Sequence record: PP558327
Length of the DNA: 49,336 nucleotides
Direction: 5' to 3' (one strand)
From: Escherichia phage FCWL1
Shown here: positions 8,237 through 28,383 of the stretch, in pieces
Layout: the number at the start of each line of letters is the position of its first letter
Position numbering within the stretch: position 1 is the first letter of the stretch
Program-made: the position numbers and the translations under genes
Notes under the pieces: model-generated
What the model was told of the DNA's origin: nothing
What the model saw: the letters and a program-made list of their open reading frames with translations, nothing else
Databases searched by the model: none

Positions 8237-8246
8237 TAAACACTAA

Positions 8247-8267
8247 CCCGCTTCGGCGGGTTTTTTT
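8247..8267 (+). terminator. intrinsic terminator (CCCGC-TTCG-GCGGG + T7)
   Basis: GC stem with UUCG tetraloop followed by T-tract. Confidence 0.6.
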
Positions 8268-8287
8268 ATGCCTGCAATATGGTAAAA

Positions 8288-8302
8288 TAGCACTAAATGT
8301 TA
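8288..8302. promoter_or_regulatory. palindrome TAGCA-CTAAA-TGTTA immediately upstream of terminase small subunit RBS
   Basis: Operator-like palindrome between terminator and RBS. Confidence 0.4.
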
Positions 8303-14974: not shown

Positions 14975-14995
14975 CATAAAAACACTTTGACGCTT

Positions 14996-15010
14996 TAACA
15001 AAAAGTGCTA
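14996..15010. promoter_or_regulatory. palindrome TAACA-AAAAG-TGCTA overlapping TTGACG...TATTAT promoter-like elements
   Basis: Operator-like palindrome lies in spacer/-10 of a putative promoter upstream of capsid gene. Confidence 0.35.
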
Positions 15011-15018
15011 TTATTGAA

Positions 15019-15044
15019 GCCGTGAACATAATCACGGCTTTTTT
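15019..15044 (+). terminator. intrinsic terminator
   Basis: GCCGTGA...TCACGGC hairpin + T6. Confidence 0.55.
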
Positions 15045-18681: not shown

Positions 18682-18693
18682 ATCCTATCCATA

Positions 18694-18720
18694 GGGGGCT
18701 TGCGCCCCCTTGTTCATTTC
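18694..18720 (+). terminator. hairpin (GGGGGC-TTGC-GCCCCC) with weak T-rich tail
   Basis: GC-rich stem-loop after major tail gene. Confidence 0.4.
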
Positions 18721-18757
18721 TGTAAAATCATCCTATCAACTTTATTCGATTAACTTT

Positions 18758-19467: not shown

Positions 19468-22341
19468 ATGGTTGATAAGGTAGCAGGTCTGTCGCTTGAC
19501 GTTGATGTGTCAACAGTGCAGCGCGCCGTCAAGTCACTGAAAGAGTTTTCAAAGGCCAACGACCAGGCCGCTGATTCTATGGGTTCTTTAATCAATGAGT
19601 CAGAGGTTGCAAAACAGAAGGCCAAAGAACACGCTGAACAACTCAGGCGTCAGAGAAAAGAGTATGAGGCCGTGGAGAAGGCAATCGATCCTACAGTATC
19701 AAAAATGGAAAGGTTGAAGATTGCATCTCAGCAGCTTGATAAACTCTGGCAGCAGGGAGTCGTTCCAGATGAGACATTTTTCCGTTTGGGTGAAATGCTG
19801 GATCTGCAAAACGCAAAACTTGCTCTCAGCCGGGCTATGCTTACGGAAGAAGGTCAGGCGGCATTGCAGGAAGCGAAAGCAAAAGAGCAGGCGGCAGCAC
19901 GAAGCAAGGCGTTCATGGATGCCCTGAATGGTCAAGTTAACGCGATCGGCAAGACTCATGCTGAATTGATGGAACTGAAAGCGGCTGAGCTTGGTTTATC
20001 GAAAGAAGCAGCACCACTAATCGCAAAACTTAAAGATCAAGGCCGGGCTATGAATGCAGCAGGTATTAGCGCCGGGGAATACAGGCAGGCAATGCGAATG
20101 CTTCCTGCACAGATTACCGACGTCGTTACATCTCTTGCATCCGGCATGCCAGTTTGGATGGTTGCCATCCAGCAAGGCGGTCAAATCAAGGACTCGTTCG
20201 GCGGGATCAGTAATACGTTTAAAGTGTTGCTGAGTTATATTAATCCAGTCACAGCAGGGGTTGGCGTTCTCGTTGGCTCGTTAGGTCTTCTGGCGAAAGC
20301 TGGTTATGACTCTTACAAGTCAATAACTGATATTCAGAATGCGCTTATTGAGACTGGCGGTTATGCAGGTGTTACGGCTGAAGAGCTTGATTCAGTGTCT
20401 AAAAAGATCGCACAGACAAGCAACTCAACCATTGGGAGTATTCGCGATATTGTAACGGAGTTGGCGAGTTCTGGTAAGTACACCCGCGAGCAGATCCAGA
20501 ACATCACTAAGGCTACCGCAGAGTGGTCAGCGTCAACAGGAAAATCAGCAAGCCAAATTATTTCTGAGTTCGACAAAATCGCAAGCGATCCGGTAAAAGG
20601 CCTGAAGAAGTTAAACGAGCAATATAATTTCCTTGAAAAAGGGCAACTTACCTATATCGATACATTAAGCCGGACGAAAGGAGAAACTGAGGCAGTATCA
20701 GAGGCTACCAAACTATTCGCAGACGTAATGGAAAAGCGAATGAAGTCGATCGCGGATAACGCTACTCCTCTGGAAAAGATGTGGAGCGATATTAAACAAT
20801 GGGCTTCGGACGCGTGGGGATGGGTTGGTGATCATACACTCGGGGCGCTAAACCTGATTGTCGACGTTGTTCAGGGTACAGTGATTCAGGTTAAAATGAT
20901 TCTTGCGAAGGGTGATGAGTACATCTCAAACTTTATCGCCTCAGCCATAAAGGCAACTCAGTCACTACCTGGAATGAGTGATTTCGGCGCTGATGTGCTG
21001 AAGGAGCAGGAGAACATCGTAAAAAGTTCTCGCGACAACTACGACCAGTTGGCTTCAGAGCTTGATGCTATTAACGCTCGCGTAGAAAAAGGCGAGATGG
21101 GATACGTTGAAGCGATGAAGCAGCGTCGAACTCTTGAAAAGCAGTACAGTGAGGAAACTAGGGAGGCAATAAGGAAAGAAGCAGAAGAGATCGAGAAGCG
21201 AAACCGAGAAAGAAATAAGCAGTCGAAAATTGTACGCTCACCGACAGAGCAATTCGACAAGGAGTTAATTTCACTCAAGGCTCAACTTAAGGTATTGCAG
21301 GAGCATAAGGAGATCGGTCAAAAACTTTCCGCGCAGAGAAAGGCGCTGTTTACTACCGAGGCTACGATTGCTGTTCTTCGTGAAGCCAGCTCTAAGCGTC
21401 AGTTGTCTGCGGAAGAAAAAGCGTTGCTGGCAAGTCAGGAGAGAGTTATTGAGCTTGCGAAACAGAAGGCCGAGATTGGCGATCAGATTGTTAAGCAACA
21501 ACAGTTGAATGATCTTACCGATAAATCTCTGAAGTTTGTCAATGAGATGACGGCAGCTACAGAACAGCTAAACGCGTCTCGAGGGATGAGCACCCGAGAA
21601 ATGGAAAGGCAAGCTGAGTTGGCTAAGATCACTACTGATTATATTAATGCAGGTGGCAGCGAAGGAGATGAAAAACTCCAGAACATGATCAAGGCACAAA
21701 ATGATTACTATGCTGCGGAAGATGCCAAGCGTTCTGACTGGTTAGCAGGTGCTGAAAGTGCATTTGCAGATTACGGCGATTCTGCAATGGATATGTACGG
21801 CAATGTGTATGATATCGCGTCAAGTTCACTTAACGGAATGAGTGACATGATGACCCAATTCCTGACTACAGGTAAGGCAAATTTTGAGGACTTTGCGAAA
21901 AACATCATTAGCATGATTATTAAGATGATTGCTCAAATGGTAATCTTCAATACGATCTCAGGCATGATGGGCGGTAAGACGTGGAGCTTTGCTGGAGGGG
22001 TGTCGCCTGGTGCTTCTGCGGTATCACAGGCAACTCCTACGCCTGCCGTCTCTGGTTTTAGGTCTTTATCTTCAGGCGTCGCTGTTACCTCGCTTGCTGC
22101 CGCTGCGGGTAGTGTTGCAACATCTGGATTTAACGCATCTAAATCCGCACCGAAGGCAGTGAACCAATCAGCAGGCGGGACGGTCGTTGATGTTAGGGGT
22201 ATGGAGGTTAAAGTTGACAACGGTTCAGATCCGAGAGGAATTTCTCAGGGCGTAGAAATGATGTTCAAAAAAATGATTCGAGAGTCTTGTTCACAGGGCG
22301 GAGAGGTTTACAATTACATTCAGGAAAAAACAGGAGGCTAA
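19468..22341 (+). CDS. tail tape measure protein
   Basis: 957 aa, coiled-coil-rich, hydrophobic central segments, Gly/Ala-rich C-terminus; downstream of G/GT. Confidence 0.85.
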
Positions 22342-22343
22342 TA

Positions 22344-22697
22344 ATGGCGACACTTGACACTTTCAGTTGGTGTACGCAGGTTCAAGGGGGCGGCGGCTCC
22401 CTTACCACTACCAACAATGACAGATCCATACAGTTTGGAAACGGCCACATGCAGCTTGCATCTTCTGGATTTAACACCACGCGACGCGAGTATTCAGTTG
22501 TCTATGCTGGGGAAGATTTCATGGCTGTTTACGACTTCTGTGATTCTCACCGCATTAAACCTTTCGCATGGACGCCGCCGGACGGGAAGATCGGAATATG
22601 GGTTGTTAAGCCTAACAGCCTGGGCGCGAAGCCAGTATCACGCGACGTGATGGAAATTAATGTCACGTTTATGGAGCAGTTTACATCTATGGAATAG
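22344..22697 (+). CDS. minor tail protein (lambda M-like)
   Basis: 117 aa immediately after tape measure; RBS AGGAGG. Confidence 0.65.
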   Translation: MATLDTFSWCTQVQGGGGSLTTTNNDRSIQFGNGHMQLASSGFNTTRREYSVVYAGEDFMAVYDFCDSHRIKPFAWTPPDGKIGIWVVKPNSLGAKPVSRDVMEINVTFMEQFTSME

Positions 22698-22713
22698 CAC
22701 TTCATGACAAAAG

Positions 22714-22735
22714 CCCGCCTTGCGCGGGTTTTTTT
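22714..22735 (+). terminator. terminator hairpin CCCGCCTTGCGCGGG + T7, followed by extended -10 TGTAGAAT
   Basis: Same hairpin sequence as at 24893. Confidence 0.6.
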
Positions 22736-22776
22736 GTAGCTGTAGAATGGTTGCAACTAAACAAGAGGAAAAGACA

Positions 22777-23559
22777 ATGAGCGAAAACAAAAAACTTTAT
22801 GATGAAGAAAGCGGGAAGAGCCTGTTTCACAACTGCCTTCAATCACTATACCCTGGAGAGATAATCACTCTGATTGAAGTTGATGGCAGCAAGTTCGGCG
22901 CTCAGGTGTACCGTTTCCACGGGGAAAATATCCAGTACACTCCAGAAGAAATCATGCAGGCACAGCAAACCGGAACGCTACCGCCGAAAGAAATCACCTT
23001 CCGTGGCGAGCAATACGGCGCGCGACCTTTCGGTATATCCGGGATCTCGTTCGACAGTTCCGGCAAGGCCACAAAGCCACAATTAACGGTGGCAAACATC
23101 GATAGTCGCGTATCTGCGATGATTCGTGCATATAACGGACTAATGCAAGCTAAGGTGACTATCTGGATCACTCAAAAGGACTTAATTCAACATAACGGCT
23201 CAATCGCTGACGGAGCTTACCGAAAACTGGTATACTATATCGAACGCCCGAGCTATGTCGATAAGAGTGTCGCCAGGTTCGATCTAACGTCTCCTTATGA
23301 TATGGATGGAATCATGATACCGTCACGACTAACTCAAAGCGTTTGCTATTGGGCGCAGAGGGGATGGTATAAAACCGGGAAGGGGTGCGGATACAACGGG
23401 CAAAATGGTTACTTCGATAAAGACAATAATCCGGTAGACGATCCTTCGCTGGATTTTTGCCCGGGAACGGTAACGGCCTGCCGCCTGAGATTCGGCGCAA
23501 ACAATGAATTGGATTTTGGCGGTTGCGCAGTCGCTTCACTACAGAGGAAAAATCAATGA
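22777..23559 (+). CDS. minor tail protein (lambda L-like)
   Basis: 260 aa; conserved Cys cluster near C-terminus (DFCPGTVTACRLRFGAN); synteny M-L-K-I-J. Confidence 0.7.
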   Translation: MSENKKLYDEESGKSLFHNCLQSLYPGEIITLIEVDGSKFGAQVYRFHGENIQYTPEEIMQAQQTGTLPPKEITFRGEQYGARPFGISGISFDSSGKATKPQLTVANIDSRVSAMIRAYNGLMQAKVTIWITQKDLIQHNGSIADGAYRKLVYYIERPSYVDKSVARFDLTSPYDMDGIMIPSRLTQSVCYWAQRGWYKTGKGCGYNGQNGYFDKDNNPVDDPSLDFCPGTVTACRLRFGANNELDFGGCAVASLQRKNQ

Positions 23560-24290
23560 TTAGTGCAAAAATTAAACTTGAAATTATGACTCACGCTCAA
23601 GAAGAATATCCTCGCGAATGCTGTGGGGTAGTCACCCAAAAGGGCCGCGTACAAAAATACCATCGCGTTGATAATGTACACCGCGATCCCGAGAATCATT
23701 TCATGATGGATGCTGTACAATACGCTTGCATTGAGGACGATGCGGAATCAACAACAATAGCAATTGTTCACAGCCACACAGGAGACGGGGCTACAACTCT
23801 ACCAAGCGCTCACGATACGTGCATGTGCAACGAGATGGAAGTTACCTGGATTATTGTTAGCGTGCCGGAAGGGGATATGCGATTTGTGAAGCCGGAGAAA
23901 TTGCCTCTGATTGGTCGTCCGTGGTCATTAGGATCATTCGACTGTTACGGTCTTGTTATGGCGTGGCACAAAGAGCACGGCGTAGAATTGCGCGATCGCC
24001 GATTGAATTTTGAATGGTGGAAACCTGAGTACGGAATTAATCTCTATCAGGATTATTACAAGCAGGATGGCTTCGTTGAGATTCCAGATCAGAATAATCC
24101 GTCATTCGGTGATATGGTAATCATGCAGATAGGGCAAAACGTTCCGGTATGGAACCATGCAGGGATTTACCTGGGAGATAATCAGATCTTGCATCATGCC
24201 TTCGGCAAGCTATCTCGTCGTGATATTTATTCCGGATGGTATCAGGATCATACTGTTTTAATCGTTCGCCATAAGGATCTTAAATTATGA
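23556..24290 (+). CDS. tail assembly protein (lambda K-like; JAB/MPN + NlpC/P60 domains)
   Basis: HSHTGDG (JAMM-like) motif and Cys/His peptidase-like C-terminal region; ATGA overlap with L-like gene. Confidence 0.7.
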   Translation: MISAKIKLEIMTHAQEEYPRECCGVVTQKGRVQKYHRVDNVHRDPENHFMMDAVQYACIEDDAESTTIAIVHSHTGDGATTLPSAHDTCMCNEMEVTWIIVSVPEGDMRFVKPEKLPLIGRPWSLGSFDCYGLVMAWHKEHGVELRDRRLNFEWWKPEYGINLYQDYYKQDGFVEIPDQNNPSFGDMVIMQIGQNVPVWNHAGIYLGDNQILHHAFGKLSRRDIYSGWYQDHTVLIVRHKDLKL

Positions 24291-24886
24291 ATGATGTAAA
24301 AGTAATTAAATTGTCAGGTTCACTTGGGAGACGCTTCGGCGTCTTTCACCGTTACGCTGTTGACTCTTACCCGGAAGCCATACGGGCGCTATCCAGTCAG
24401 GTGGACGGATTTAAAGAATACATGCAAAGCGAGGTAGGATCTCGTAGCAAGTTTTCAATATTTGTGGATGGCGTTAACGTGGGACACCATGAAGAGGAAA
24501 AATTCAAGTGCGCGAAAGAGATAAGAATCGTACCGATCCCTACTGGCTCTAAGACAGGAGGTCTATTTCAGGTTGTATTGGGCGCGGCAATAATGGTTGC
24601 AGCATTCTATACTGGCGGCGCGTCTCTGGCTTTAATGGGCACAATGTCCTCTTCTCTGTTTATGATGGGCGGCGCTATGGTGTTGGGTGGAGTGATGCAG
24701 ATGATTTCACCGCAGCCGGGAGGCGCAAACTTTGAAGTTCAATCAAGCAAGAATAAACCTTCTTACGCGTTCGGCGGTGCTGTCAATACGACGGCGGCTG
24801 GATACCCTCTCCCGGTCCCGTATGGATATCGCGCCGGAGGTGGCGCAACTTTCTCAGCAGGTTCTTATGCCGAGGATATGAGTTAA
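24287..24886 (+). CDS. tail assembly protein (lambda I-like)
   Basis: 199 aa with hydrophobic Gly/Ala-rich segment GLFQVVLGAAIMVAAFYTGGASLALMG; position between K-like and J-like. Confidence 0.65.
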   Translation: MNDVKVIKLSGSLGRRFGVFHRYAVDSYPEAIRALSSQVDGFKEYMQSEVGSRSKFSIFVDGVNVGHHEEEKFKCAKEIRIVPIPTGSKTGGLFQVVLGAAIMVAAFYTGGASLALMGTMSSSLFMMGGAMVLGGVMQMISPQPGGANFEVQSSKNKPSYAFGGAVNTTAAGYPLPVPYGYRAGGGATFSAGSYAEDMS

Positions 24887-24892
24887 AATTAA

Positions 24893-24927
24893 CCCGCCTT
24901 GCGCGGGTTTTTTTTCGCCTGTATAAT
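24893..24927 (+). terminator. terminator hairpin CCCGCCTTGCGCGGG + T8 followed by extended -10 TGTATAAT
   Basis: Hairpin identical to 22714; TGn-TATAAT immediately downstream. Confidence 0.6.
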
Positions 24928-24963
24928 GAGTCCACCGATAAATAGCACAAAAAGGTAAACATC

Positions 24964-27900
24964 ATGATTCAAAAAGTGATAAGTGGATCTAAAGGCGGCT
25001 CGCCTAAGCCTCATAATCCAGTTGAGATGGAAGACAATCTAATCTCAATCAACAAAATCAAGATCCTGTTAGCTGTATCTGATGGTGAAATTGACGAAAC
25101 ATTCAGCCTGAAGCAGTTGATGTTTAACTCAGTCCCGGTGCAAAACGAGGATGGATCGTTCAACTTCGAAGGGGTAAAGGCTGAGTTCAGGCCGGGAACT
25201 CAGACGCAGGAATACATCAAGGGCATGGAGGATAGTTCCAGCGAGGTAACTGTAAATCGTGAGGTTACTACCGATAACCCATACACGATCTCAGTGACCA
25301 ATAAAACACTATCGGCAATACGCATCAAAATGTTCATGCCTCGCGGCGTACGAATTGAAAGTAACGGTGATAAAAATGGCGTAAGAGTTGAGTATGAGGT
25401 GCAACAAGCTGTTGATGGCGGTTCGTTTGAGACTGTTCTTACTGACGTAATTGAAGGCAAAACAATGTCAGGTTACGACAGAAGTCGACGTGTAAACCTG
25501 CCTAGCTTTAACAACCAGGTAATATTCAGAGTTGTTCGAAAGACTCCAGACTCTAACGACTCTAACGTTGTTGATGCGATCCAGGTAAAGAGCTATGCCG
25601 AGGTGATTGATGCCAAATTCCGTTACCCTCTGACAGGTCTTCTTTTCGTCGAGTTCGACTCGAAGATGTTCCCAAACCAGTTACCTACGATCTCAATTCG
25701 TAAGCGCTGGAAGATTGTAAGCGTTCCGTCGAACTACGACCCAGAATCGCGAACATACAACGGCAATTGGGATGGCACTTTCAAAAAAGCATGGACGAAC
25801 AATCCGGCGTGGGTTCTTTATGACCTGATGATTAATCAGCGTTACGGCTTGGATCAGAAAGAGCTTGGTATCGCTGTCGATAAATGGGCGCTCTACGAGG
25901 CTGCGCAATATTGCGATCAGATGGTTCCTGATGGGAAGGGCGGGACGGAACCTCGATACCTTTGCGACGTGATAATCCAGTCTCAGACTGACGCTTACAA
26001 GGTTATTCGAGATATTTGCTCAATCTTTCGAGGTATGAGCTTTTGGAATGGCGAAAGCATTTCGGTAATCATCGATAGGCCGCGTGAGCCTGCGTACATC
26101 TTCACTAACGACAACGTGGTTAATGGTGACTTCTCCTACACGTTTGCAAGCGAAAAGAGCATGTACACGACGTGTAATGTGATGTTTGACGACGAGCAAA
26201 ACATGTATCAGCAGGACGTTGAGCCAGTATTCGATCGTGAGGCTACTCTACGGTTCGGGAACAACGTAACGAGCATTACAGCGATCGGCTGCACACGTCG
26301 AAGCGAGGCCAACCGACGCGGGAGATGGATTCTGAAAACTAACCTCCGCAGCACTACGGTAAACTTCGCTACCGGACTTGAGGGTATGATTCCGACAATC
26401 GGAGATGTTGTGGCAATAGCTGATAACTTCTGGTCAAGTAACTTGACGATGAACCTATCAGGGCGCTTGCTCGAAGTATCCGGTAGTCAGATTTTCTTGC
26501 CGCTCCGGGTGGATGCACGCGCGGGTGACTTTATTATCGTAAATAAGCCAGATGGCAAGCCCGTGAAGCGCACAATATCAAGTGTTAGTGCGGATGGTAA
26601 GACTATAGAGGTTAACATTGGCTTTGGCTTTCCTGTGAAGCCTAACACGGTATTCGCTATCGACCGCACCGACATTGCGTTACAGCAGTACGTCGTGACA
26701 AAAATCGATAAGGGCGATGATGATGAGGAATTTACCTACAAAATAACGGCGGTGGAGTACGATCCTAACAAGTACGATGAGATTGATTACGGAGTTAATA
26801 TCGACGACCGACCGACGAGCATCGTTGAACCAGATCAGATCCCTAGACCGGAAAACGTGCAAGTGTCCTCAGAGTCACGAATCGTCCAGGGGATGAGCGT
26901 AGAAACGATGATTGTTAGCTGGGATAAAGTGCCGTACGCAGTTTTCTATGACGTCCAGTGGCGAAAGGATAACGGCAACTGGCAAAATGTACCGCAGACA
27001 GCAAACAAAGAGGTATACGTTGAAGGTATTTACGCTGGCAACTATCAGGTTCGCGTTCGCTCCGTAGCTGGTTCCGGTACGACTTCAGGATGGTCAAATG
27101 TCGTAGCTGCGACGCTGACGGGCAAACAAGGTGAGCCGGGTGGACCGATTAACCTTACAGCTACGGATGATGTTGTTTTTGGTATCCGTACAAAATGGGG
27201 GTTCTCTGATGGTTCTGGAGATACGGCCTATACAGAGTTGCAACAGTCACCAGATGGAACAGTGGATAACGCAAGTTTGCTTTCTTTGATTCCGTACCCG
27301 CAGCATGAGTATTATCACTCACCGATGCCTGGAGGGAATATTGTTTGGTATCGTGTAAGGACGGTTGATAGGATCGGTAACGTGTCTCAGTGGACTGATT
27401 TTGTCAGAGGTATGGCATCAACAAACGTTGACGATATCATTGGGGAGATTTCTGTCGATATCGAAAACTCGCCGGGTTACGAGTGGCTTGTTGATAACGC
27501 AACCGACAACGCGGCGCAGAACGCAGCTAACGCAGAGGCAGCAATAGAAAACGCGCTCGCCAATGACAAAGACGCGATCTACATGAAGAAGGAGAACGGA
27601 AAACGAAAAGCTGAGTACACGAAATCACTGAAACTTATTGCTGATGAGACGCAGGCGCGAGTGACGGCGATCGAGCAATTGAAGGCAAGTTTTGGCGATC
27701 AGATTAGCGCTAGCAACAGCGAATTGCGTGAAGTTATCGCAACTGAGACTGGAGCGCTATCGCGTGAAATTGACCAACTCAGGGCAGAGATTGGTGATGA
27801 TATCCAGGCAAGTTTGACCGATATCAGAGAGGCTATAGCAAACGAGACTGAGGCGAGAACGCAAGCTGACTTGTCGTTAAGCGCGAGGCTTGGGAATAAT

Positions 27901-28383
27901 GAGGCAGCACTTTCTCAAAAACTTGATTCGTGGAGCAATGCAGATTCGACTGGTGCAATGTACGGCGTCAAGCTCGGTCTGAAGTATAACGGCCAAGAAT
28001 ACAGTGCAGGCATGGCTATGTCTCTGATTGGTTCCGGAGCTGCGGTTAAGGCGCAGATTTTGTTTGAGGCATCACGATTTGCCATCATGAATGGAATGAA
28101 TGGTCAGACTCAGTACCCATTCGTTGTTGAGAATGGCCAGGTTATTTTAAGTAGCGCGATTATCAAGAACGGATTCATCACGAATGCGATGATTGGTAAT
28201 GTTATTCAATCGAATAACTATGTCGTTAACAAGGCTGGCTGGATACTTGACAAGGGTGGAACATTAGAAAACTACGGAAGTGACGCTGAGGGTGCAATGA
28301 AGCAAACTAATACCACAATATCTGTTAGGGATGCGAGTGGTCGCCTGAGGGTTCAGATTGGCAGGTTGACTGGTTCATGGTAA
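24964..28383 (+). CDS. central tail fibre / host specificity protein (lambda J-like)
   Basis: 1139 aa; conserved J-family segment NPAWVLYDLMINQRYGLDQ...; fibronectin-like repeats; coiled-coil C-terminal region. Confidence 0.85.
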   Translation: MIQKVISGSKGGSPKPHNPVEMEDNLISINKIKILLAVSDGEIDETFSLKQLMFNSVPVQNEDGSFNFEGVKAEFRPGTQTQEYIKGMEDSSSEVTVNREVTTDNPYTISVTNKTLSAIRIKMFMPRGVRIESNGDKNGVRVEYEVQQAVDGGSFETVLTDVIEGKTMSGYDRSRRVNLPSFNNQVIFRVVRKTPDSNDSNVVDAIQVKSYAEVIDAKFRYPLTGLLFVEFDSKMFPNQLPTISIRKRWKIVSVPSNYDPESRTYNGNWDGTFKKAWTNNPAWVLYDLMINQRYGLDQKELGIAVDKWALYEAAQYCDQMVPDGKGGTEPRYLCDVIIQSQTDAYKVIRDICSIFRGMSFWNGESISVIIDRPREPAYIFTNDNVVNGDFSYTFASEKSMYTTCNVMFDDEQNMYQQDVEPVFDREATLRFGNNVTSITAIGCTRRSEANRRGRWILKTNLRSTTVNFATGLEGMIPTIGDVVAIADNFWSSNLTMNLSGRLLEVSGSQIFLPLRVDARAGDFIIVNKPDGKPVKRTISSVSADGKTIEVNIGFGFPVKPNTVFAIDRTDIALQQYVVTKIDKGDDDEEFTYKITAVEYDPNKYDEIDYGVNIDDRPTSIVEPDQIPRPENVQVSSESRIVQGMSVETMIVSWDKVPYAVFYDVQWRKDNGNWQNVPQTANKEVYVEGIYAGNYQVRVRSVAGSGTTSGWSNVVAATLTGKQGEPGGPINLTATDDVVFGIRTKWGFSDGSGDTAYTELQQSPDGTVDNASLLSLIPYPQHEYYHSPMPGGNIVWYRVRTVDRIGNVSQWTDFVRGMASTNVDDIIGEISVDIENSPGYEWLVDNATDNAAQNAANAEAAIENALANDKDAIYMKKENGKRKAEYTKSLKLIADETQARVTAIEQLKASFGDQISASNSELREVIATETGALSREIDQLRAEIGDDIQASLTDIREAIANETEARTQADLSLSARLGNNEAALSQKLDSWSNADSTGAMYGVKLGLKYNGQEYSAGMAMSLIGSGAAVKAQILFEASRFAIMNGMNGQTQYPFVVENGQVILSSAIIKNGFITNAMIGNVIQSNNYVVNKAGWILDKGGTLENYGSDAEGAMKQTNTTISVRDASGRLRVQIGRLTGSW

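What the first reader, a model, noticed from the sequence alone, without database searches (positions are those of the whole stretch)
22714..24927. Identical terminator hairpin plus extended -10 duplicated on both sides of the L/K/I tail-tip gene block
The hairpin CCCGCCTTGCGCGGG followed by a T-run and then TGTAGAAT or TGTATAAT occurs at 22714-22748 and again at 24893-24927. The two copies bracket the L-, K- and I-like genes and precede the J-like fibre gene. A repeated terminator-promoter unit suggests insulated, separately tuned expression of tail-tip proteins, and the identical repeats could mediate recombination or module exchange.
Basis: seen in the sequence. Interest (0 to 1): 0.35.

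Follow-up and report, generated by a model that had tools for sequence, protein, structure and literature searches.

The report
Terminator-with-built-in-promoter units in T1-like phage
The two repeated hairpins are the already-annotated transcription terminators that flank the tail-tip genes of a phage T1 relative, and comparison with related phages suggests each also carries an overlapping ordinary host-type promoter, which is a tidy but unsurprising piece of gene regulation.

Summary
The window is Escherichia phage phiD2-2, a T1-like Tunavirus. CCCGCCTTGCGCGGG plus a T-run occurs exactly twice (22714-22735 and 24893-24915), in the M|L and I|J spacers, each followed by TAGAAT or TATAAT.

Both hairpins are annotated as rho-independent terminators in phage T1 and in relatives. 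A paper on phage TLS reports that T1's late region was earlier described as terminator-flanked "transcriptons", so the core of the finding is known.

"Extended -10" is wrong. The TG abuts the hexamer, so the sequence is not TGnTATAAT.

Comparison adds one thing. In at least eight Drexlerviridae lineages, the hexamer 17 bp upstream of a conserved TAnAAT sits in the hairpin loop and 3' arm and reads TTG(C/T)GC, or TAG in three lineages. T-run length (5-9) is offset by the length of the spacer that follows. Lineages with no -10 at M|L also have no TTG in the loop.

My best reading is an intrinsic terminator with an embedded sigma70 promoter, which insulates the L-K-I and J transcription units. 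A third unit lies at 18693-18728.

I found no evidence for a special recombination role. All function is inferred, because no transcript data were found.

Verdict: new member of a known kind, with modest interest.

The parts
22344..22697 (+). M-like minor tail gene, the last gene upstream of unit 1
   Evidence: Pfam PF05939 at E 1.8e-24. Corresponds to T1 gene CPTT1_041.
22711..22735 (+). Unit 1 intrinsic terminator. Core stem CCCGC/GCGGG (22714-22728) with loop CTTGC, an A/U extension, and a T7 run at 22729-22735.
   Evidence: d-score 22.8. The orthologous site is annotated as a terminator in T1 at 22793-22816.
22720..22748 (+). Unit 1 putative sigma70 promoter: -35-like TTGCGC (22720-22725, in the loop and 3' arm), a 17-bp spacer that contains the T-run, and -10 TAGAAT (22743-22748). 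Inferred start near A22755.
   Evidence: PWM rank 25 of 98,672. Function is inferred from conservation only.
22765..23559 (+). Shine-Dalgarno GAGGA (22765-22769) and the L-like gene (ATG at 22777)
   Evidence: Read. Pfam PF05100. The T1 start is at the equivalent ATG.
23556..24290 (+). K-like gene (JAB + NlpC/P60)
24287..24886 (+). I-like tail assembly gene, the last gene upstream of unit 2
   Evidence: Pfam PF06805.
24891..24915 (+). Unit 2 intrinsic terminator. It has the same 15-nt core (24893-24907) and a T8 run at 24908-24915.
   Evidence: d-score 27.8. The orthologous site is annotated as a terminator in T1 at 24972-24994.
24899..24927 (+). Unit 2 putative sigma70 promoter: TTGCGC (24899-24904), a 17-bp spacer, and TATAAT (24922-24927). 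Inferred start near A24934.
   Evidence: PWM rank 8 of 98,672. The -10 is kept in 67 of 67 distinct relatives that have a terminator.
24942..24960 (+). Conserved ATAGCACAAAAAGGTAAAC box in the J leader. It resembles the direct-repeat (DR) element and includes the ribosome-binding site.
   Evidence: (family D3). Listed as DR8 in TLS Table S1.
24964..28383 (+). J-like tail tip / host-specificity gene
   Evidence: Pfam PF24801, PF13550 and PF09327.
18693..18728 (+). Third unit of the same design, after the major tail protein gene: AGGGGGCttgcGCCCCCT, a weak T-tract, then TTGCGC-N17-TAAAAT
   Evidence: The unit is kept in CS01 and Stevie.
8245..8291 (+). Weaker fourth relative before the small terminase gene: ACCCGCttcgGCGGGT, T7, TTCGGC-N17-CAATAT, then TGGTAAAAT
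   Evidence: (family D9, 69% identity).

Best explanation
Each site is a compact two-in-one regulatory element about 40 bp long.

1. RNA polymerase arriving from upstream transcribes a GC-rich hairpin followed by 7-8 U and terminates, probably partially. This closes the upstream transcript, which is TMP-M at site 1 and L-K-I at site 2.

2. The same DNA carries a host sigma70 promoter. The TTGCGC that forms the hairpin loop and the start of the 3' arm serves as the -35 hexamer. The T-run lies inside an optimal 17-bp spacer. TAGAAT or TATAAT is the -10 hexamer.

3. New transcripts would start about 7 nt further on, beyond the terminator, so they escape it. They would carry a 22-30 nt leader with the ribosome-binding site of L or J.

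The result would be separately dosed transcription units for the low-copy tail-tip proteins.

What is shown: the sequence anatomy, the conservation, the compensated spacing, and the existing terminator annotations. What is inferred: that termination and initiation actually occur, and how efficient each is. The identity of the two hairpins reflects a copy or conversion of the I|J-type unit into the M|L spacer in the ancestor of Tunavirinae.
For: Terminator. The hairpin has 5 GC pairs plus an A/U extension and is followed by T7 or T8. My d-scores are 22.8 and 27.8, within the range of the phage's other terminators. Both sites are annotated as rho-independent terminators in T1, SA32RD, Sin4 and TLS, as T46 and T49. 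The stem sequence differs between lineages but pairing is kept: CCCGC/GCGGG, CCAGC/GCTGG, GCCGC/GCGGC, CCCCGC/GCGGGG, GCGCCC/GGGTGC and GCCTGGGGGC/GCCTCCGGGC.

Promoter.
- At I|J, 67 of 67 distinct relatives with a terminator keep TAnAAT. The hexamer 17 bp upstream is TTGCGC, TTGCGG or TTGTGC in 41 of them, and TAGCCT or TAGTGC in 26.
- Positions 1, 2, 4, 5 and 6 of the -10 are invariant in 53 distinct sequences, whereas the flanking spacer and leader carry about 0.5-0.7 bit.
- The T-run varies from 5 to 9 T, and the spacer after it varies from 4 to 9 nt in compensation, which keeps the total at 17.
- At M|L, 45 of 53 have the 17-bp spacing.
- Lineages with no -10 at M|L (Veterinaerplatzvirus, Sd1, L050, L051, L071, L074) have the terminator followed directly by a ribosome-binding site, and none has TTG in the loop.
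- In the window, TTGCGC-N17-TAnAAT occurs 3 times against 0.04 expected. The other late-region terminators have no TTG in their loops and no -10 after them.
- Several lineages have a true TGnTAnAAT at M|L.
- In atuna, and similarly in Sd1, an inserted HNH gene lies between I and the unit, so the unit stays next to J.
- An outgroup (Dhillonvirus) has overlapping genes and no spacer at either junction.
Against: - I found no transcript data (5' ends, 3' ends or read-through) for any T1-like phage.
- The -35 matches only 3 of 6 positions (TTG), and only T.G in Webervirus, Veterinaerplatzvirus and Sd1.
- My PWM score alone is not significant. Shuffled sequence gives about 11 sites per strand scoring as well as site 1, against 17 observed.
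- Part of the -35 and spacer conservation is forced by the terminator itself (the stem and the T-run). Only the loop TTG, the fixed spacing and the -10 count as independent evidence.
- The sequences are phylogenetically related, so the counts overstate the number of independent events.
- Published annotations of T1 and TLS list no promoter at these sites.
- Other late-region terminators have no promoter after them, so read-through must suffice there and could suffice here too.
Confidence: 0.6

Rival explanations
1. The sites are terminators or attenuators only. They reduce and end transcription, and may stabilise the 3' ends of upstream mRNAs. L-K-I and J would be expressed by read-through. 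The conserved TAnAAT would then serve another purpose, such as an AU-rich RNase E entry site or leader element, or would be an inherited remnant.
For: The terminator anatomy and annotations are solid. At least eight other late-region terminators are followed directly by a ribosome-binding site with no promoter, so read-through clearly operates in this operon. The single-genome promoter score is not significant. No annotation calls a promoter here.
Against: This reading does not explain three things: five invariant -10 positions amid variable flanks, compensation of T-run length that keeps exactly 17 bp to a loop TTG, or the joint absence of the TTG and the -10 in some lineages.
Confidence: 0.27
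2. The identical repeats are recombination substrates or module-boundary sequences that promote exchange of the L-K-I block or of J between phages.
For: The two sites share 22 identical bases in direct orientation, and the phage encodes a RecE/RecT-like pair (T1 annotation). L038 combines one flank haplotype upstream of unit 1 with the other haplotype downstream. HNH genes have inserted into the I|J spacer in atuna and Sd1.
Against: Four-gamete incompatibilities occur in 159 of 681 adjacent informative-site intervals across 20.9-26.8 kb, roughly one per 40 bp, with no concentration at the units. M, L, I and J identities to other genera change together, apart from M being uniformly less conserved. 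Recombination between the two direct repeats would delete L, K and I, which should be lethal. Most genera have non-identical hairpins at the two sites yet keep the units.
Confidence: 0.06
3. The repeat is a chance resemblance between two unrelated GC hairpins.
For: CCCGC...GCGGG stems followed by T-runs are common among enterobacterial terminators (own knowledge, for example the trp attenuator).
Against: Shuffles give 0.03 expected matches against 2 observed. The similarity also covers the loop, the T-run and CTGTAnAATG, for 31 of 36 positions. Both sites are conserved in relatives.
Confidence: 0.01

Closest known systems
Annotated rho-independent terminators of phage T1 (AY216660.1 / NC_005833.1: 22793-22816 and 24972-24994), and T46 and T49 of phage TLS
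   Same: These are orthologous elements at the same M|L and I|J junctions. In T1 the hairpin, T-run and downstream hexamers are identical to those here.
   Different: Those records annotate only the terminator. None lists a promoter overlapping it, and none remarks that the two hairpins are identical.
'Transcripton' model of the T1 late region (Roberts et al. 2004, as summarised in PMC11447400)
   Same: [quoted passage not shown]
   Different: I could not read the original paper. The TLS authors, using stricter criteria, could not confirm such modules and listed only three promoters, none at these sites. What is specific here is the -35 hexamer inside the terminator loop at a conserved 17-bp spacing.
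Phage lambda late operon (genes M-L-K-I-J transcribed from pR' under Q antitermination)
   Same: The tail-tip genes are homologous and in the same order.
   Different: By my own knowledge, lambda has no internal terminators or promoters between these genes. The outgroup tested here, Dhillonvirus JLBYU60, has overlapping genes with no spacers. The units are a Drexlerviridae feature.
Terminator-then-promoter junctions inside operons, such as the E. coli rpsU-dnaG-rpoD internal terminator and promoters, or T4 gene clusters (own knowledge)
   Same: The logic is the same: partial termination followed by re-initiation decouples expression of downstream genes.
   Different: Here the two signals physically overlap, with the -35 in the hairpin loop and the U-tract in the spacer, and the design is repeated at three or four junctions.

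Membership tests
Intrinsic (rho-independent) terminator | GC-rich stem with a 3-8 nt loop | tested here: met
   There are 5 GC pairs plus an A/U extension and a 5-nt loop. Core folding energy is about -8 kcal/mol, or -14 kcal/mol with the extension.
Intrinsic (rho-independent) terminator | Uninterrupted U-tract directly after the stem | tested here: met
   T7 at 22729-22735 and T8 at 24908-24915. T-scores are 5.0 and 5.2, the highest in the late region.
Intrinsic (rho-independent) terminator | Intergenic position, on the same strand as and downstream of a stop codon | tested here: met
   The core hairpin starts 17 nt after the M stop codon and 7 nt after the I stop codon.
Intrinsic (rho-independent) terminator | Pairing maintained in relatives through compensatory changes | tested here: met
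   At least eight different stem sequences all pair. The RNAalifold run was anchored on the promoter register and so is only partly informative; 4 of its 6 pairs show double changes.
Intrinsic (rho-independent) terminator | RNA 3' ends in vivo or in vitro | not testable with these tools
   No T1-like transcriptome was found in the paper library.
Sigma70 -35/-10 promoter | -10 hexamer TAnnnT close to TATAAT | tested here: met
   TAGAAT matches 5 of 6 positions and TATAAT matches 6 of 6. The hexamer is invariant at five positions in 53 distinct relatives.
Sigma70 -35/-10 promoter | -35 hexamer close to TTGACA | tested here: inconclusive
   TTGCGC matches 3 of 6 positions (the TTG). TTG is kept in most lineages, but three lineages have TAG.
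Sigma70 -35/-10 promoter | 16-18 bp spacer | tested here: met
   The spacer is 17 bp at both sites. It is 17 bp in 67 of 67 I|J relatives and 45 of 53 M|L relatives, with compensating length changes.
Sigma70 -35/-10 promoter | Mapped transcription start | not testable with these tools
   No data are available. The starts near 22755 and 24934 are inferred.
Extended -10 promoter (TGnTATAAT) | TG at -15/-14, one base upstream of the hexamer | tested here: not met
   The TG is adjacent to the hexamer (CTG-TAGAAT, CTG-TATAAT). A TGNTANAAT search misses both sites. Some other genera do have TGnTAnAAT at M|L.
Recombination / module-boundary sequence | Mosaic junctions concentrated at the element | tested here: not met
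   Incompatible intervals are spread evenly across the region, and the M/L/I/J identities show no break at either site. The sample is limited to 14 Tunavirus sequences.

The most novel reading that the evidence does not exclude
Drexlerviridae late operons are built from a conserved bifunctional part about 40 bp long. It is an intrinsic terminator whose loop supplies the -35 hexamer and whose U-tract sits in the 17-bp spacer of a sigma70 promoter. The part is used at three or four fixed junctions: before terS, after the major tail gene, at M|L and at I|J. Each block would therefore be an insulated, separately dosed transcription unit. No annotation or paper I could read records this design.
Probability: 0.5. 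Interest if true: 0.4.

Novelty: new member of a known kind. Interest (0 to 1): 0.3.

Why it matters
If the embedded promoters are real, T1-like phages do not transcribe their tail genes as one long lambda-style message. They would use short insulated units, which would help explain how low-copy tail-tip proteins are dosed without a known antiterminator. It would also correct current annotations of these phages, which list many terminators but almost no late promoters. The 40-bp terminator-plus-promoter unit would be a ready-made insulating part for phage engineering. None of this changes basic concepts of transcription.

Tried and rejected
- Extended -10: rejected after reading the sequence and after a TGNTANAAT search.
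- Recombination hot spot: a four-gamete scan of 14 Tunavirus sequences, sliding identity and per-gene identities gave no enrichment at the units.
- Two apparent exceptions are uninformative. L049 has a disrupted I|J hairpin but carries several frameshifting indels, so it is probably a low-quality sequence. L048 has a 171-bp deletion next to hairpin 1 that truncates L, so it is probably an assembly artefact or a defective genome.
- Known RNA families: Rfam gave only sub-threshold chance hits.
- Single-genome promoter scoring: my PWM ranks the sites 8th and 25th, but shuffles score similarly, so I do not use it as evidence. The built-in promoter scan does not list either site, because TTGCGC matches only 3 of 6 positions.
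- ATAGCAC box just upstream of hairpin 1 (22693-22699): it is not conserved in T1, so I treat it as chance.
- Literature: four searches found no transcriptome or transcription-start mapping for T1-like phages. The original T1 genome paper is not held.
- RNAalifold on 14 representative units aligned them on the promoter register rather than the hairpin register, so its pair counts understate the hairpin.

Full report
**Identity of the window.** The region 22000-25600 is 100% identical to Escherichia phage phiD2-2 (OR861627.1, Tunavirus, Drexlerviridae). It is 93% identical to phage T1.

**Observation.** CCCGCCTTGCGCGGG is present at 22714-22728 and 24893-24907. It is followed by T7 and T8 respectively, and then by GTAGC-TGTAGAAT and CGCC-TGTATAAT.
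- These are the only two matches in the window, even when 2 mismatches are allowed. Shuffles give 0.03 expected.
- As 36-nt units the two copies are 86% identical.
- The first lies in the 79-nt M|L spacer and the second in the 77-nt I|J spacer.
The TG touches the hexamer, so neither site is an extended -10 (TGnTATAAT). A TGNTANAAT search does not hit them.

**The hairpins are known terminators.**
- Both fold as 5 GC pairs with a 5-nt loop and A/U extensions and are followed by perfect U-tracts.
- With a d'Aubenton-Carafa-type score, using a formula recalled from memory, they score 22.8 and 27.8. That is inside the 9.6-34 range of the phage's other terminators.
- The identical elements are annotated as rho-independent terminators in both T1 records, in SA32RD and in Sin4. 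In TLS they are listed as T46 and T49.
[quoted passage not shown] I could not read the original paper.

**What comparison adds.** I collected the two spacers from 91 loci. They cover Tunavirus, Sertoctavirus, Warwickvirus, Kyungwonvirus, Tlsvirus, Webervirus, Veterinaerplatzvirus, Wilsonroadvirus and unnamed metagenomic lineages.

At I|J:
- Every one of 67 distinct sequences with a terminator keeps TAnAAT: TATAAT in 35, TACAAT in 29 and TAGAAT in 3.
- The hexamer exactly 17 bp upstream reads TTGCGC, TTGCGG or TTGTGC in 41 sequences, and TAGCCT or TAGTGC in 26.
- Hexamer positions 1, 2, 4, 5 and 6 are invariant in 53 distinct sequences. The spacer just upstream and the leader just downstream carry only about 0.5-0.7 bit per position.
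- The hairpins themselves differ in stem sequence, stem length (5-11 bp) and loop length (3-6 nt).
- The T-run varies from 5 to 9 T, and the stretch after it varies from 4 to 9 nt in the opposite direction, so the total stays at 17. Three examples: GGG+T8+CGCCTG, GGCC+T8+GCCCG and CCGGGC+T5+GTCGTG.

At M|L:
- 45 of 53 distinct sequences show the same 17-bp geometry.
- Lineages with no -10 there (Veterinaerplatzvirus, Sd1, L050, L051, L071, L074) have the terminator running straight into a ribosome-binding site.
- The loops in those lineages (tatgc, taca, ttat, gtat, taac, tagc) contain no TTG.

Inside the window the same contrast holds.
- TTGCGC-N17-TAnAAT occurs three times, at 18700, 22720 and 24899, against 0.04 expected.
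- The nine other late-region terminators have no TTG in the loop and no -10 after them.
- The third unit, after the major tail protein gene, is also kept in CS01 and Stevie.
- The outgroup Dhillonvirus has overlapping genes and no spacers at either junction.

**Interpretation.** The simplest reading is an intrinsic terminator with an overlapping sigma70 promoter.
- The -35 hexamer lies in the loop and 3' arm of the hairpin.
- The U-tract lies in the 17-bp spacer.
- The -10 hexamer lies 4-9 nt after the T-run.
- The inferred transcription starts are near A22755 and A24934.

Transcripts from upstream would be terminated. New transcripts would start beyond the terminator and carry only a short leader with the ribosome-binding site. 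In atuna and Sd1 an HNH homing-endonuclease gene is annotated between I and J. In atuna the full unit lies after it, next to J, and Sd1 shows the same hairpin and TAGA directly upstream of J. This placement fits a role for the unit in J expression.

**Limits.**
- No transcript data exist in the paper library.
- The -35 matches only 3 of 6 positions.
- My PWM ranks the sites 8th and 25th of 98,672 positions, but shuffled sequence yields about as many hits, so that score proves nothing.
- Part of the conservation is imposed by the terminator itself.
- The sequences are related, so the counts are not independent events.
- Other terminators in the operon have no promoter after them, so read-through must occur there and could occur here.

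**Why the two hairpins are identical.** Outside Tunavirinae the M|L hairpin is of another type (GCCGC-cTTTGt-GCGGC). The CCCGC-cTTGc-GCGGG type is widespread at I|J. Only Tunavirus, SRT8 (Sertoctavirus, Tunavirinae) and IME347 carry the I|J type at M|L, together with the CTG that precedes the hexamer. This points to a copy or conversion of the roughly 36-nt I|J unit into the M|L spacer in an ancestor of these phages. It is an inference.

**Recombination idea.** Among 14 Tunavirus sequences, 159 of 681 adjacent informative-site intervals fail the four-gamete test across the whole 6 kb. The units are not special in this respect. Per-gene identities to other genera show no module boundary at either site. 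Two odd genomes (L048 and L049) look like sequence-quality problems. Recombination between the two direct repeats would delete L, K and I.

**Verdict.** Its main content, two terminators bracketing L-K-I, is already annotated in T1. The promoter idea is right in spirit but wrong in type. The conserved design with the -35 in the terminator loop is not in the annotations or papers I could read. It is a modest refinement of a known kind of regulation, and it remains untested experimentally.

Noticed in passing
window 1128, 2148, 2219, 3507, 5160, 34002, 35544, 38051, 39080, 41068, 42593, 48449 (+ strand); reverse orientation at 94, 14985, 18747, 44989, 47117, 47347, 49232: There is a large family of ATAGCACnnnTTGnTAAAA(C) repeats. 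This is the DR consensus reported for TLS with function left open. Where I checked (for example 2219 and 42593), the TTGnTA lies 22 bp from a TATAGT/TATATT-like hexamer rather than 17 bp, and a short GC hairpin fills the gap or encloses the hexamer. That is not canonical sigma70 geometry.
   Followed up: partly
window 24942-24960: The J leader carries a DR-like box, ATAGCACAAAAAGGTAAAC, in which the TTG position is replaced by the ribosome-binding site AAGG. The box is conserved across most genera and is listed as DR8 in TLS. Its role in a 5' leader is unexplained.
   Followed up: partly
window 14987-15041: Before the major capsid gene there is a good promoter, TTGACG-N16-(TGC)TATTAT. T1 annotates a promoter at the equivalent position. 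It is followed within 2 nt by a terminator hairpin at 15016-15041. Transcripts from this promoter would start inside the 5' arm and escape the hairpin. This is the same insulating logic with the order of the two signals reversed.
   Followed up: no
window 4836, 10487, 14184, 16052, 28409: A second class of late-region terminators has its T-tract running straight into a conserved ribosome-binding site (CCTTTTTTATTGGAGAAA..ATG), with no room for a promoter (families D10/D11).
   Followed up: partly
L029 3810-4424 (phage atuna); L034 3810-4396 (phage Sd1): An HNH homing-endonuclease gene is inserted in the I|J spacer, between I and the terminator-promoter unit. In atuna it brings its own DR-type upstream element. 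L074 has a 514-nt stretch at M|L and L083 and L085 a 569-nt stretch at I|J, in place of the usual 50-90 nt.
   Followed up: partly
window 22747-22776: The phiD2-2 GenBank record starts the L gene at the ATG inside TAGAATGG (22747), which has no Shine-Dalgarno sequence. T1 starts it at the equivalent of 22777, which is preceded by GAGGA. The later start looks correct.
   Followed up: partly
L048 (IMGVR_UViG_2974674285) and L049 (IMGVR_UViG_2974611450): L048 lacks 171 bp from just after hairpin 1 into the L gene. L049 has a disrupted I|J hairpin (CCCGCTCCGCATTCA) along with several frameshifting indels. Both are probably assembly or sequencing artefacts.
   Followed up: partly
window 22680-22708: In T1-type haplotypes the 3' end of M reads TTTACA-N17-TATAAC, and SA32RD annotates it as a promoter just upstream of terminator 1. 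In phiD2-2 the second hexamer is CATGAC, so this feature is not conserved.
   Followed up: no
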